A stretch of 64,000 bases of DNA, taken from assembly GCA_964510055.1 (NCBI GenBank), contig CAZDZY010000002.1, forward strand, positions 859 through 64,858. The letters run 5' to 3'. Source of the stretch: an uncultured Christensenellaceae bacterium. GTDB lineage: Bacteria; Bacillota; Clostridia; Christensenellales; SZUA-584. The position numbers and the translations under genes are program-made. The notes under the pieces are model-generated. The model was given only the letters and a program-made list of their open reading frames with translations. It was not told where the DNA came from and searched no databases. Below, piece after piece: positions 3,028 through 61,450 of the stretch. Numbering within the stretch: position 1 is the first letter of the stretch; each line of letters opens with the position of its first letter.

Positions 3028-3271
3028 TTCCTTTCTTAAAAATTATATATTTTAATTAAATTTAAGGCTCAGTTATGTTTCCGGCTTCTTGCCCGGCAAT
3101 AAATGCGTACTAAAAAAGGGCGGAAACACTAAGCTTCCCACCCTGAAAACTCGAAATCTTGAAACAGAAACTGCCAACCGAAAACCGAAAGTAAGATATT
3201 CAATTTGAAGTTATTATAATATATTGTCGGGGAAAAAACAATTAAAACTTTGTGATGATTTTCTCACTGTA

Positions 3272-57738: not shown

Positions 57739-57957
57739 TCATCTTACCTTTTTAAGCAGGTTCTCGTACGTCTCTTCGTCTATCTCGCCTCTGGCGAGCC
57801 TTTCTTTGAGTATCTGCTCCGCGCTCGACGGGCGGTAGTCCCTTACGCGGTTATTGCTTCTCGTTACCAGTACGACTACTATAATTATAACTGCGACCGT
57901 ACCTAAGAAACCAAGGCCTCCGATCCACGCAAACGGGAACCAGTGCATATTAAACAT
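57739..57957 (-). CDS. SHOCT domain membrane protein
   Basis: 72 aa. N-terminal TM followed by AEQILKERLARGEIDEETYENLLKKV. Confidence 0.65.
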   Translation of the reverse strand: MFNMHWFPFAWIGGLGFLGTVAVIIIVVVLVTRSNNRVRDYRPSSAEQILKERLARGEIDEETYENLLKKVR

Positions 57958-58094: not shown

Positions 58095-58973
58095 CTAGTT
58101 GAAGAAACTTCCGTCATTCATCCGCACATACCACCAATGCTCATCCAACCGAATTATCGTGTCGGCGTGTGAGAATTCCGGCGGCGATGTATCCACGATA
58201 TCTTCATGCCATAATAACTTTGAATGCCCGAAGATCGTATACATATCTATTTTGATAAATGTCCCAGGACCATAAAACATAATATCTGATACATACTCCC
58301 ACTTCAGGGAACCGCATATCTCCCGGATCCTTCGCCTGTCCTGATCGCTGATATCCTTTCCGCTTTCTGTTTCGCCGCTTACGTCGGCACCCCTGCACAA
58401 GACATGAACACCTACAAAATCATATTTTTGCGTTATCTGCCACGCTTCCTCTATCTCTTTGCTGTGCCAGCCGGGAACTCGGGTATAAGAGAGCCCGATC
58501 CAAAGAAAGCAGTACAGCAAAACCGCCGCTATTATTCCCGCGAATAATCCCAAGAAAGCGAGGCGGCTCTTCCTCGCGGCTTTCCGGTTTTCTTCGGCCC
58601 CAAGAAATTTCCCGTTTCTATCGCAGCGGCTGCTCGCCTCCTCATTAGGGTGCAGTTCGTCGTTCTCCCACATTACGCGGAACCTGCCGAACCTGTAGAC
58701 AAACTTGCGCGTGTAAAAAAATTCAGCGATAATAATAATTACAAGACAAATCATCGGTACTTCAAAAAAACGAATATACCTGCACCAAAAAGGATTTAAA
58801 TAACCGATTATACCGGCAGGAATAATAATAAGCAACCATCCGATTATCATAAGCGGCCTGTCGGCAAACTCATAACTTCTCTCCCTGCTTATTACCGGGT
58901 CGTTCCAGAAATACTTATACCCCTTTTGCTTTTTACAATCCGCATACAGCGGCTTGTTTAAGTCTTCTTTCAT
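58095..58973 (-). CDS. Hypothetical membrane protein
   Basis: Start at MKEDLNK after AAGGAGAGG. Three TMs and a C-terminal soluble domain. Confidence 0.45.
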   Translation of the reverse strand: MKEDLNKPLYADCKKQKGYKYFWNDPVISRERSYEFADRPLMIIGWLLIIIPAGIIGYLNPFWCRYIRFFEVPMICLVIIIIAEFFYTRKFVYRFGRFRVMWENDELHPNEEASSRCDRNGKFLGAEENRKAARKSRLAFLGLFAGIIAAVLLYCFLWIGLSYTRVPGWHSKEIEEAWQITQKYDFVGVHVLCRGADVSGETESGKDISDQDRRRIREICGSLKWEYVSDIMFYGPGTFIKIDMYTIFGHSKLLWHEDIVDTSPPEFSHADTIIRLDEHWWYVRMNDGSFFN

Positions 58974-59130
58974 ACGGCCTCTCCTTACCTCATTCTTTAG
59001 TTTCCCGAGCCGGTATGCTCTATCCATTATACAACATATTTACCATAATAACAGCGATATGAATATGTAGAATGTATCTCTTTTTGAAGCAATGAAGTAA
59101 CAAAATGAAGCAGGAGCGATGCATGTTTTT

Positions 59131-59685
59131 TTACAGCAGCAGAAGCGAGGCAAACGCCCCCGCGGCGGATGAGCCTATAACGTCGGCGATGAGGTCGAAA
59201 TCCGTGTCTTCGAGCCCTTTTTGCAGCCGCAATTCTTTTTTCTTCCTCGAGTCGAGTACGAACTCTATTATCTCGACGAATACCCCCAGCGTAACGCCGA
59301 GCGCCAATATTACTATTGCCGCGAATAGTTTTGGTATGGCTTCGCTGAACAGGGATGTCAGTGTAAAATACGCTGCCTGTGAAAAGGCAAAGGAACCGAG
59401 CGCGTGGCCGAAACGGTCGAACGTCTTCGATCTTCCGTAAAGCCGCAGGAAAAATCCGAGGAAAGTGTGGGAGAAGACCGAGAGTATAGTGAATATCATG
59501 ACTGCCGCGGGGATCCTAAGGTGAAGGAAATGCGCGGAAATAAAGAACGCCGCGTACAACAGTAACGGTGTAATAACGGCTTTCATAAGCGCCCGCTCCC
59601 GCATTTTAAAGAACCTGAATAATATATATCCTTCCGAGGCAATCAGTACGATAAACACCGTCCATACCAATACAGGCATCAGCAT
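59131..59685 (-). CDS. Hypothetical polytopic membrane protein (possibly DUF2238/YjdF-like)
   Basis: 184 aa, 5-6 TMs. FDRFGHALG and EIIEFVLD are weakly YjdF-like. Confidence 0.4.
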   Translation of the reverse strand: MLMPVLVWTVFIVLIASEGYILFRFFKMRERALMKAVITPLLLYAAFFISAHFLHLRIPAAVMIFTILSVFSHTFLGFFLRLYGRSKTFDRFGHALGSFAFSQAAYFTLTSLFSEAIPKLFAAIVILALGVTLGVFVEIIEFVLDSRKKKELRLQKGLEDTDFDLIADVIGSSAAGAFASLLLL

Positions 59686-59866
59686 ACGCTCTTTTCACAA
59701 TTATTTAAGTCTATTATGCTCTTTTACAGCAGGGGATATGTTGCGCTGTCAGCATTAACGGACTTTATACCATTCATATTTAGATAGCTTTTGAGAATAC
59801 GATATAACACCCAAAAACCATACCTTTTTTGAGCTGTTGGGAGGGACCCGTACCAAAAGAAAACAG

Positions 59867-59907
59867 CCTGGGCGCTAAATTGCGTTGTCAGCAATTTAGC
59901 GCCCAGG
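59867..59907 (-). terminator. Terminator with perfect 17-bp stem
   Basis: CCTGGGCGCTAAATTGC-GTTGTCA-GCAATTTAGCGCCCAGG. It is T-rich on the minus strand after the stem. Confidence 0.75.
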
Positions 59908-59917
59908 CGTACGGCGC

Positions 59918-60145
59918 TTAAGGTTGCTCTTTCAAAGCTGTTATTCTGATAATTCCCTGACGTGGTACCAGATGATGTTGATTCGCCGAGAACAAATGCA
60001 GATCATGTCCCATTATGAATGTGTGTGTGGATATTTCGTCTCCTGATAAGACTATTTCATCCGTGAAAGTCTTATATTCTATTCTTTCAATATTACTGTA
60101 AATTTTGCTGCTTCCGCCGGAGTAGATAATCTGCAATGTATACAT
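59918..60145 (-). CDS. Small ORFan protein, paralogue 1 of 3
   Basis: 75 aa starting MYTLQIIYSGGS.... Own TTGATA/TATAAT-type promoter, GAAGG RBS and own terminator. Confidence 0.6.
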   Translation of the reverse strand: MYTLQIIYSGGSSKIYSNIERIEYKTFTDEIVLSGDEISTHTFIMGHDLHLFSANQHHLVPRQGIIRITALKEQP

Positions 60146-60426
60146 TTATAACCTTCTTTCTTAAGTATTTGCTATTATTATACTACATATATTTTCCACC
60201 TATCAACAATAATATAAAAATGAACGTGTCTGTTTTTCGATTTAAATTCTTTACCGCTCCGAAAACTATCCGTATTGCTGCGCCGTTCACTCTGTGCTCC
60301 GCTGTTTTAAACCAGGCCTGCCTGCGGCCCTTACATTTCAGATAAATAAGATCTTCCCTAATAAAAAAAAGCCCCGGTAAAGATATAATAATACCCGGGG
60401 CGAAGAATTTCTTTTCTTTTTTCTTC

Positions 60427-60642
60427 TTAAAAAACTTCTATTCCGACTACACCTTGATGAGAAACTAAATAATTGCTGTTTTTGGAGAATAAGTGCAAAT
60501 CATGGTCCGGTGTAAACTTGTGCGTTGAAATTTCATCTCCTGATACCGTTATATCATCCATGTAGGTCTGATACTCCACTTTTTCTATGTCATTGTAAGT
60601 TCTGAATTGACCGCCGGAATAATTGATCCGCAGTGTGTACAT
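60427..60642 (-). CDS. Small ORFan protein, paralogue 2 of 3
   Basis: 71 aa from the ATG at 60642 (AAAGGAG 7 nt upstream), starting MYTLRINYSGGQ.... Own terminator hairpin at ~60371-60400. Confidence 0.6.
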   Translation of the reverse strand: MYTLRINYSGGQFRTYNDIEKVEYQTYMDDITVSGDEISTHKFTPDHDLHLFSKNSNYLVSHQGVVGIEVF

Positions 60643-60846
60643 CGCCACGCTCCTTTCCTGTTTATTTCCCTGTTATACTAATTTTAACTACTTTATATAC
60701 TAATTTTAACTGCATTATTTATCGTATTCAAGATTTATTATACTAAAATAATAAATTATTTTATTTATGTTCGGAAAATTAAAAACACCTCTTAAAACCT
60801 CTTCGCAGCCAAAAAGATACCACCTCTTTACGGAGGTGGTATCTTC

Positions 60847-61074
60847 TCAATATCCCTCTTTTGATACTAATATCCCTACTATCCCCTGTCGGGGCACTAA
60901 TATTTTTTGGTTTCTGGAGAACAGGTTTATATCATGCCCGAGTGTAAACCTGTGGTTTAACAGCTCGTCGCCCGATACCTTTACTTTTTCCAGAAATGTC
61001 TGATATTCTATCTTGTCGACACCGTTGAATACCTTTTGGCTGCCGCCTGAATAATTGATCTGCAGGGTATACAT
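60847..61074 (-). CDS. Small ORFan protein, paralogue 3 of 3
   Basis: 75 aa starting MYTLQINYSGGS.... Promoter TTGAAT-17-TATAAT, AAGGAGGAAG RBS, and terminator GATACCACCTC-TTTAC-GGAGGTGGTATC. Confidence 0.6.
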   Translation of the reverse strand: MYTLQINYSGGSQKVFNGVDKIEYQTFLEKVKVSGDELLNHRFTLGHDINLFSRNQKILVPRQGIVGILVSKEGY

Positions 61075-61450
61075 TTGCTTCCTCCTTTAAAACACATTGC
61101 CTGTATTATACTAATATCAGTTATAGTATTCAACTATAGACAATTGTATTTTGGTAACTATTTTTGACGAATTATGTCTTTTGACCGTTTTTCTTTTTTA
61201 AAGTTTCCGGTACAAACAATGATATGCGGAAATAAGTTTAGATGCAGCCATTATTTATATCAACTCTGTCCGGAATAAAACATAAGCCCCGCCGCGCAGC
61301 GGAGCCGAAAAAAATTATACGCGTCCATCTTTCCAAATCAAGCGATGGCCGACGGGTGGAAGCTCAGCCGCCGCGGATAAAACATGTATCCTGCAAATAA
61401 CGGCGGCGGCATAGCAACACCGCGCAAAGCGGGCGCCGAATAAAAGGAAG

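What the first reader, a model, noticed from the sequence alone, without database searches (positions are those of the whole stretch)
59918..61074. Three tandem, independently transcribed ~75-aa ORFan paralogues
The three minus-strand genes are 59918-60145, 60427-60642 and 60847-61074. They encode MYTLQI(I/N)YSGG..K......I(E)Y.T(F/Y).....(V/L)SGDE...H.F...HD(L/I).LFS.N...LV..QG(I/V). By eye, roughly half the positions are identical between members.

Each gene has its own near-consensus promoter, with a conserved TAGTATAAT -10 region. Each also has a strong RBS and a private terminator hairpin, separated by AT-rich spacers. The leader of the middle copy contains a direct repeat, TATACTAATTTTAACT x2 (60674-60712).

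There is no signal peptide or TM, and no family I recognise. Triplicated, strongly promoted tiny genes of unknown function are typical of stress, toxin-antidote or phage-interference functions. I have no direct evidence for any of these.
Basis: seen in the sequence. Interest (0 to 1): 0.55.

Follow-up and report, generated by a model that had tools for sequence, protein, structure and literature searches.

The report
Three solo phage-derived small-protein genes
Three neighbouring, separately switched genes encode diverged copies of a tiny all-beta protein from an unnamed family that normally rides in dormant viruses of gut Clostridia; here the host chromosome carries it without its usual partner gene, and its function is still unknown.

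Summary
Three minus-strand genes (59918-60145, 60427-60642, 60847-61074) encode 75/71/75-aa paralogues that are about 55% identical. They are under purifying selection (dN/dS about 0.1-0.3). Each has a sigma-70-like promoter, a Shine-Dalgarno site and its own terminator hairpin.

They are not true ORFans. An exhaustive profile search finds 86 cluster representatives, nearly all stand-alone 70-80-aa proteins. No Pfam, NCBIfam, PHROGs, PADLOC or PDB match exists. The AlphaFold model is confident (pLDDT 94) and all-beta. Its only significant fold match is an uncharacterised gut siphovirus protein.

Distant members sit in prophage or integrative-element immunity regions. In 7 of 7 lineages with enough context they point the same way as the repressor and integrase. 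In about 11 lineages they lie tail-to-tail with a conserved 40-50-aa beta-alpha-beta mini-gene, often sharing a TTAA stop overlap.

The window clade (Christensenellaceae-like) is chromosomal and lacks this partner. It is the only clade with tandem copies: one, two or three in related genomes.

The best reading is that these are domesticated, moron-like units of phage origin. A role in phage-host conflict is inferred from context only.

The parts
60847..61074 (-). Copy C, 75-aa all-beta protein (pI 9.05)
   Evidence: ORF. 100% identical to P0001. Orthologues occur in L001, L002 and L003 with dN/dS 0.06-0.14. AF2 pLDDT is 94.
61081..61133 (-). Copy C promoter (TTGAAT-17-TATAAT, 61133-61105), about 24-nt leader and GGAGG RBS (61085-61081)
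   Evidence: and the sequence. This stretch is 82-89% identical across four genomes, against 46-64% further upstream.
60805..60848 (-). Copy C intrinsic terminator (13-bp perfect stem at 60814-60845, plus a T-run)
   Evidence: -24.5 kcal/mol, z -6.6; repeat I2.
60427..60642 (-). Copy B, 71-aa paralogue (pI 5.04)
   Evidence: ORF. Orthologues in L001 and L003 with dN/dS 0.08-0.29.
60650..60749 (-). Copy B leader and promoter region: weaker promoter-like sites, a 22-nt tandem duplication of the -10 region (60674-60719), a further TAGTATAAT (60736-60749) and a GGAG RBS (60653-60650)
   Evidence: The duplication is absent from L003 and L001.
60363..60401 (-). Copy B terminator (GCCCCGG...CCGGGGC stem followed by T8)
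   Evidence: and the sequence. The scan did not flag it because the loop is 17 nt.
59918..60145 (-). Copy A, 75-aa paralogue (pI 6.15). No close orthologue exists anywhere in the database.
   Evidence: ORF. Apart from itself, the only hit is 64% identical. It branches beside the copy C clade.
60152..60206 (-). Copy A promoter (TTGATA-18-TATAAT, 60206-60177) and AGAAGG RBS (60157-60152)
   Evidence: 11 of 12 match. The upstream region aligns with that of copy C.
59856..59908 (-). Copy A terminator (18-bp perfect stem at 59866-59908, plus a T-rich tail)
   Evidence: -36.2 kcal/mol, z -6.8; repeat I1.

Best explanation
What is shown:
- The three ORFs are real, separately transcribed genes. Each is built as promoter, Shine-Dalgarno site, about 220-nt ORF and intrinsic terminator.
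- They are a lineage-specific tandem expansion of an unannotated family of about 75-aa, mostly acidic, soluble all-beta proteins.
- Across gut Clostridia this family is mainly carried by temperate phages and integrative elements.
- In those elements one copy sits in the immunity region. It points the same way as the repressor and integrase genes and against the early-lytic genes.
- That copy almost always lies tail-to-tail with a conserved 40-50-aa beta-alpha-beta mini-gene, often with stops overlapping in TTAA.
- In the window's Christensenellaceae-like lineage the gene sits in an ordinary chromosomal neighbourhood without the partner gene. It is present in one, two or three copies in related genomes. 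The copies have diverged to about 55% identity under purifying selection.

What is inferred:
- The units are expressed constitutively from sigma-A-type promoters.
- The protein works by binding another protein rather than nucleic acid. It acts in phage-host or phage-phage conflict, for example in superinfection immunity or by neutralising a phage early protein.
- The diverged copies broaden the range of targets.
For: - Coding and selection.
- Transcription-unit anatomy. The copy C promoter and leader show a phylogenetic footprint.
- Wider family: 86 representatives, nearly all 70-80 aa.
- Fold: pLDDT 94, all-beta. The only significant structural match is an uncharacterised gut siphovirus protein (E 9e-5, TM 0.78).
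- Prophage or integrative-element context, with orientation matching the repressor and integrase, in seven lineages.
- Two IMG/VR viral contigs (L009, L010) were found first and a third (L031) later.
- Convergent partner gene in about 11 lineages, including loci not used to build the HMM.
- Tandem copies occur only in the window clade, which also lacks the partner. The clade is monophyletic.
- The three genes have lower G+C (37-42%) than their neighbours (46-58%).
- The unit architecture matches the published definition of a moron: sigma-70-like promoter, factor-independent terminator and deviant G+C (PMC3714127).
- The family's median pI is 5.7.
Against: - There is no expression data and no functional test of any family member.
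- The window locus has no phage, integrase or transposase gene that I could detect.
- Neither the three proteins nor their neighbours match a known defence family.
- One other member (P0013, loci L006/L007) also lies among ordinary chromosomal genes.
- The prophage-borne relatives are only about 30-39% identical, so their role may not carry over.
- No match in cultured-phage GenBank records, PLSDB plasmids or PHROGs.
- The window clade was not found in IMG/VR.
Confidence: 0.4

Rival explanations
1. Orphan half of a two-gene antagonistic module. In the wider family, the 75-aa protein and the convergent mini-protein would form an effector/neutraliser pair, similar to a toxin-antitoxin system. 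The three partner-less window copies would be orphan neutralisers that protect the host against partner proteins brought in by invading elements.
For: - The gene pair is conserved across about 11 lineages at about 30% identity. The 3' ends abut or overlap, often in TTAA.
- The pair persists in a non-prophage locus (L006) and in an IS-adjacent locus (L008).
- The solo copies remain under purifying selection. That fits a harmless, protective component.
Against: - Convergent orientation is unusual for protein-protein toxin-antitoxin pairs.
- Neither protein matches any toxin or antitoxin family.
- No binding or toxicity data exist.
- The adjacency could instead reflect a shared insertion site or transcriptional coupling.
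Confidence: 0.2
2. Lysis-lysogeny regulator. The protein would modulate a repressor or antirepressor decision in temperate elements. The chromosomal copies would tune or silence resident or incoming prophages.
For: - Family members lie next to CI-like, XRE, S24 LexA-like, ImmA-like or ORF6N antirepressor genes.
- The partner mini-gene is often the last gene of a transcript that starts with an XRE or antirepressor gene.
- The convergent overlap would make expression of the two genes mutually exclusive.
Against: - The protein is acidic with no DNA-binding fold.
- The pair is missing from some closely related immunity modules. For example, the second module in L020 lacks it. That marks it as accessory rather than core switch machinery.
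- No prophage was found in the window.
Confidence: 0.15
3. Host housekeeping or stress protein unrelated to phages. It could, for instance, be a small metal- or ligand-binding protein, amplified because high dosage is needed.
For: - The chromosomal position is stable across four related genomes. It lies between a Cys-rich Csp-like gene and a DUF2238-like membrane-protein gene, with MscS and SHOCT genes nearby.
- Asp, Glu and His positions are conserved in the motif GDEIL.H.FP...DLHLFS.
- The promoters are strong.
Against: - Most lineages with enough context are in mobile elements.
- The His and Asp positions are not invariant. Copy C itself has N at position 50.
- Copy number varies from one to three between close relatives.
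- G+C is lower than in the neighbouring genes.
Confidence: 0.15
4. Spurious or decaying ORFs. The similarity would be left over from a DNA repeat with no protein function.
For: The genes are short, lie in an AT-rich stretch, and carry no annotation in any source.
Against: - dN/dS is 0.06-0.29, with saturated synonymous sites between paralogues.
- The reading frames are intact in every genome examined.
- The AF2 fold is confident.
- A diverse family of uniform length exists.
Confidence: 0.02

Closest known systems
Phage 'morons': autonomous promoter-gene-terminator units in prophages, as defined in PMC3714127. The original lambdoid/HK97 work is cited from my own knowledge.
   Same: Each window unit has a sigma-70-like promoter, one small gene, a factor-independent terminator and a G+C content below its surroundings. 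Relatives sit in prophages in the lysogeny orientation.
   Different: The window units lie in the chromosome with no phage genes detected within the 64-kb window, and they form a tandem array of three. The prophage-borne relatives are not classical morons either. They end against a convergent gene rather than at a terminator.
Prophage-encoded superinfection-exclusion or defence genes located between repressor and integrase, such as lactococcal Sie2009, S. thermophilus Ltp and the mycobacteriophage prophage-mediated defence genes (from my own knowledge)
   Same: The position and orientation of the distant family members in the immunity region match. They are small accessory genes with a patchy distribution.
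   Different: Sie and Ltp are membrane proteins or lipoproteins. This family is soluble and all-beta. No sequence or profile match exists (PADLOC and PHROGs). No phenotype is known.
Convergent, 3'-overlapping toxin-antitoxin loci, such as the type I systems txpA/RatA and bsrG/SR4 in B. subtilis prophage regions (from my own knowledge)
   Same: In relatives, two small convergent transcription units overlap at their 3' ends and are located in prophages.
   Different: Here both partners are conserved, non-hydrophobic proteins rather than a membrane peptide plus an antisense RNA. The window copies have no partner at all.
Small beta-barrel proteins: Sm/Hfq, SH3-like DUF903 lipoproteins, Hint/intein halves and cold-shock domains
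   Same: Similar size (about 70 aa) and all-beta content. Cold-shock genes also occur as multiple strongly promoted paralogues.
   Different: Foldseek matches are weak only (TM 0.37-0.44, E at least 0.15). No Pfam, NCBIfam or PDB sequence match exists.

Membership tests
Any curated protein family (Pfam-A 2025, NCBIfam 20, PHROGs v4, PADLOC 2.0) | Profile match at or above the curated cut-off | tested here: not met
   The best hits are short chance-level stretches far below the cut-offs. They are GTP cyclohydrolase I (13-16 bits against cut-offs of 27 to 181) and reverse-transcriptase models (E 0.0016-0.07). Fifty family members scanned singly share no Pfam or PHROG family.
Phage moron | Own sigma-70-like promoter upstream of the gene | tested here: met
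   Matches of 10-11 out of 12 for copies C and A, and 9 out of 12 for B. The copy C promoter and leader are 82-89% conserved across four genomes, against 46-64% further upstream. This rests on consensus and footprint only, with no transcript data.
Phage moron | Factor-independent terminator directly downstream | tested here: met
   A hairpin followed by a T-run lies after each copy.
Phage moron | Inserted between genes of a prophage | tested here: not met
   The neighbours are chromosomal genes: Csp-like, DUF2238-like, SHOCT, PNPOx-like, MscS, MatE and TetR. phmmer found no homologue of integrase, recombinase, transposase or phage-repressor queries in the window. Distant relatives do meet this feature.
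Phage moron | Expressed from the repressed prophage | not testable with these tools
   This needs transcript data. Only the orientation relative to the repressor and integrase is shown, and it agrees in 7 of 7 lineages.
Toxin-antitoxin module | Two adjacent cognate genes | tested here: not met
   No partner ORF lies near any window copy, nor in L001-L003 (six-frame hmmsearch --max). Relatives do have a conserved partner, but it is convergent rather than co-directional.
Toxin-antitoxin module | One product toxic and neutralised by the other | not testable with these tools
   This needs expression experiments.
Sm/Hfq-like or cold-shock small beta-barrels | Fold superposition with a significant score, or a family profile match | tested here: not met
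   Against Hfq, Foldseek gives TM 0.36-0.42 and E of at least 1.0. There is no LSM or CSD Pfam hit.
Known anti-phage defence island | Neighbours are recognised defence genes | tested here: not met
   PADLOC finds nothing for six neighbouring genes.

The most novel reading that the evidence does not exclude
The 75-aa beta protein and the convergent beta-alpha-beta mini-protein form a previously undescribed two-component module of temperate elements. The mini-protein, made at the end of an early or lytic transcript, is the effector. The 75-aa protein, made in the lysogen, neutralises it, and convergent overlapping transcription makes their expression mutually exclusive. On this reading the window's three partner-less, strongly promoted, diverged copies are host-captured neutralisers. 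They would act as a chromosomal, repressor-independent immunity array against several phages.
Probability: 0.15. Interest if true: 0.7.

Novelty: new variant of a known kind. Interest (0 to 1): 0.45.

Why it matters
- The work defines an unannotated small-protein family of at least 86 clusters at 50% identity, with a confident all-beta fold that has no solved relative. It links the family to the immunity regions of temperate elements in gut Clostridia, where most accessory genes have no known function.
- The conserved stop-overlapping convergent gene pair, and its partner-less tandem chromosomal derivative, give a concrete and testable handle on a possible new phage-host conflict module.
- If the function proves mundane, the locus is still a clean example of moron-like units fixed and amplified in a chromosome.

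Tried and rejected
Family and structure searches:
- Pfam, NCBIfam, PHROGs and PADLOC scans of the three proteins, and of 50 family members, found nothing.
- The weak GTP cyclohydrolase and reverse-transcriptase hits were rejected. They are short, far below the cut-offs, and differ from copy to copy.
- A PDB profile search gave only McbD at E 0.078, over 30 residues. I rejected it.
- Foldseek against PDB gave inteins, Hfq, DUF903 and Tudor at TM of at most 0.44. I rejected these as fold assignments.

Sequence collections:
- tblastn of a family consensus and of P0099 against GenBank phages, and of the consensus against PLSDB plasmids, found nothing usable.
- No member of the window's own clade is in IMG/VR.
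- Two alignments were too degenerate for collection scans.
- The metagenome scan returned only six loci.

RNA and regulation:
- Rfam, at gathering and at E-value thresholds, shows no known RNA element in the leaders or spacers.
- I considered a conserved operator in the promoter spacers by eye. The short AT-rich inverted repeats are not shared among copies A, B and C, so I did not pursue it.

Partner mini-protein:
- No Pfam family. Foldseek gave only generic beta-alpha-beta or tautomerase-like matches at E of at least 0.17.

Other:
- Cluster names: none of the sources names any member.
- One literature search found no description of the family.

Full report
**1. The observation**

The window holds three minus-strand ORFs at 59918-60145 (copy A, 75 aa), 60427-60642 (copy B, 71 aa) and 60847-61074 (copy C, 75 aa). 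Copy B has an in-frame GTG six bases upstream. The ATG is the one spaced 7 nt from GGAG.

The proteins are 54-55% identical pairwise, with 29 invariant columns. Nucleotide differences concentrate at third codon positions. Synonymous sites are saturated (pS 0.71-0.86) while dN is about 0.3, so dN/dS is 0.13-0.16 where it can be computed.

Orthologues of C and B in three related metagenomic loci give dN/dS of 0.06-0.29. These are therefore protein-coding genes under purifying selection, and the duplications are old.

**2. Transcription-unit anatomy**

- Promoter-like sites are TTGATA-18-TATAAT for A (11 of 12) and TTGAAT-17-TATAAT for C (10 of 12). B has only 9-of-12 sites.
- Each ORF is preceded by a Shine-Dalgarno site 6-7 nt from the ATG.
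- Each ORF is followed by a hairpin and a T-run. Folding energies are -24.5, about -19 and -36.2 kcal/mol, with z-scores of -6.6, -2.7 and -6.8.
The orthologous loci L003 and L001 lack it.
- The 64 nt from the -35 element to the ATG of copy C are 82-89% identical across four genomes. The sequence further upstream is only 46-64% identical, and synonymous sites in these genomes differ by 34-81%. This is a footprint of a functional promoter and leader.
- No Rfam family matches the leaders or spacers.
- Expression itself is inferred, not shown.

**3. Not ORFans: a wider unannotated family**

A word-indexed search found only 11 close relatives. Copy A has no close orthologue at all.

An exhaustive profile search of 1.84 billion cluster representatives found 86 hits with E of at most 1e-3. 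Nearly all are stand-alone proteins of 70-80 aa. Their consensus is MYTF..Y.DG....HI.KVEY......V.GDEIL.H.FP...DLHLFS....Y.VS.....I.V.KE.

None of the following recognises the family:
- Pfam-A, NCBIfam, PHROGs or PADLOC;
- a profile search of PDB sequences;
- the source databases, none of which gives any member a name.

The family is mostly acidic, with a median pI of 5.7. That argues against nucleic-acid binding.

**4. Fold**

AlphaFold2 on a 13-sequence alignment gives a confident model (pLDDT 94, pTM 0.79). It has seven beta strands and one short helix.

Foldseek against PDB finds nothing significant. The best matches are inteins, Hfq and DUF903, with E of at least 0.15 and TM of at most 0.44.

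Against BFVD there is one significant match: an uncharacterised 78-aa protein of a gut 'Siphoviridae sp.' (E 9e-5, TM 0.78). A weaker second match has the same origin.

**5. Where relatives live**

The closest genome record is an uncultured Christensenellaceae MAG (L003, 89% identity). Distant relatives at 31% identity occur in Oscillospiraceae and Dorea MAGs.

Seven distant lineages have usable context:
- the P0099 group;
- P0029 (L009);
- L010, L022 and L023;
- P0100;
- P0023;
- P0015;
- P0041.

In all seven the gene lies in the immunity or early region of a prophage or integrative element. Its neighbours there are:
- CI-like, XRE or S24 repressors;
- ImmA-like or ORF6N proteins;
- tyrosine or large serine recombinases;
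- replication genes.

In all seven it points the same way as the repressor or integrase and against the early-lytic genes.

Three of these loci (L009, L010, L031) are IMG/VR viral contigs. P0013 is an exception among ordinary chromosomal genes. P0012 lies next to an IS1595 transposase.

**6. A conserved convergent partner in relatives, absent here**

In these loci a 37-60-aa gene on the opposite strand ends against the 3' end of the family gene. An HMM built from six such mini-proteins finds the same gene, at the same position, in loci not used to build it:
- L006/L007, E 2.6e-10;
- L019, E 5e-5;
- L033, E 1e-7;
- L032, E 7e-4.

This makes about 11 lineages in total. In seven loci (L006/L007, L008, L019, L029, L030, L032, L033/L034) the two stop codons overlap by 4 nt, in the palindrome TTAA wherever the junction was read. 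In the others the spacing ranges from a 7-nt gap to an 18-nt overlap.

The mini-protein is predicted to be beta-alpha-beta (pLDDT 83). It has no Pfam family and no significant PDB fold match.

The window and its close relatives L001-L003 have no such gene in any frame. Each of the three window copies ends in a terminator instead.

**7. The window clade**

Synteny is conserved across related genomes: Cys-rich Csp-like gene, then the small gene or genes, then a DUF2238-like gene, then a SHOCT gene (L001 has no DUF2238-like gene called between its copies and SHOCT). Copy number differs:
- L002 has one copy;
- L001 and L003 have two copies (C plus B);
- the window has three.

Tandem copies occur only in this clade. 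The clade is monophyletic in a neighbour-joining tree, with P0012 as its sister.

The three genes have 37-42% G+C, against 46-58% for their neighbours. No homologue of integrase, recombinase, transposase or phage-repressor queries is found in the 64-kb window. The genes annotated between 45.7 and 63 kb are ordinary chromosomal ones. PADLOC finds no defence gene nearby.

**8. Interpretation**

It is shown that the three genes are:
- real, separately packaged paralogues;
- members of a new small all-beta family that is largely borne by mobile elements;
- present here in an unusual chromosomal, partner-less, amplified form.

Each unit matches the published anatomy of a phage moron: sigma-70-like promoter, factor-independent terminator and deviant G+C (PMC3714127). 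It does not, however, lie in a prophage.

The following is inferred:
- The protein probably acts by protein binding in phage-host or phage-phage conflict.
- The most specific version is that it neutralises the convergent mini-protein. The window array would then be a set of host-captured neutralisers.

The rivals are a lysis-lysogeny regulator, a phage-unrelated host protein, or non-functional ORFs. The last is effectively excluded by the selection analysis.

Confidence in the anatomical and evolutionary statements is high. Confidence in any function is low.

**9. Verdict**

The genes are not ORFans, and the 'phage interference' guess gains contextual support but no direct support.

The finding is moderately interesting. 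It offers a clean, testable lead on an undescribed family and gene pair, but nothing yet overturns expectations.

Noticed in passing
L006 8225-8338(-), L008 3135-3260(-), L011 10232-10390(-), L025 8234-8386(-), L028 8208-8390(-), L029 846-971(-), L030 7978-8121(-), L032 278-640(-), L033 7225-7362(-): A conserved 37-60-aa beta-alpha-beta mini-gene (motif ..hKK(D/K)(Y/H)P...I.hEV..) lies convergent to the family gene in relatives. Its stop codon often overlaps the family gene's stop in TTAA. It is unannotated, has no Pfam family, and is absent from the window.
   Followed up: partly
window 60674-60719: A 22-nt tandem duplication of the -10 region in the copy B leader is specific to this genome and absent from L003 and L001. 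It may create two alternative start sites or alter promoter strength.
   Followed up: partly
window 58095-59027 (-): A 310-aa predicted membrane protein with no Pfam or PADLOC match lies between the DUF2238-like and SHOCT genes. It is absent from the syntenic locus L003. Together with copy A, this makes two lineage-specific insertions in one locus.
   Followed up: no
window 57739-57957 (-); L001 10830-11051; L002 8177-8398; L003 2057-2284; L033 6442-6915: A SHOCT-domain gene lies close to the family gene in the window clade. One also lies directly upstream of the family gene in the unrelated P0041 prophage. This may be coincidence or a recurring association.
   Followed up: no
window 60427-61074 and 59131-59685, compared with L003: Synonymous divergence between the window and L003 is lower for copies C (0.45) and B (0.27) than for the adjacent DUF2238-like gene (1.24). 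The possible causes are codon constraint from high expression, recent exchange, or small-sample noise.
   Followed up: no
window 59866-59908: The hairpin after copy A has an unusually long, perfect 18-bp stem (-36 kcal/mol). That is much stronger than needed for a terminator.
   Followed up: no
window 3132-3179 (-): A Na+ riboswitch (DUF1646 motif, RF03071) scores 41.8 bits, just above the gathering score of 40.5.
   Followed up: no
L033/L034 10294-12359: The P0041 prophage ends with a large serine recombinase next to a 65-aa Mn_catalase (CotJC-like) fragment and CotJB. This may be an element that interrupts a sporulation gene.
   Followed up: no
L025 6510-6764 (-): A Tad2-like gene (anti-Thoeris family, PF11195) lies about 1.2 kb from the family gene in the Dorea element. 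That region may be an accessory or anti-defence hotspot.
   Followed up: no
P0018 (1980 aa), P0027 (2748 aa), P0052 (1334 aa), P0039, P0072, P0093: Several long proteins match parts of the family profile in 3-9 separate stretches each. They may be beta-repeat proteins or composition artefacts. I did not examine them.
   Followed up: no
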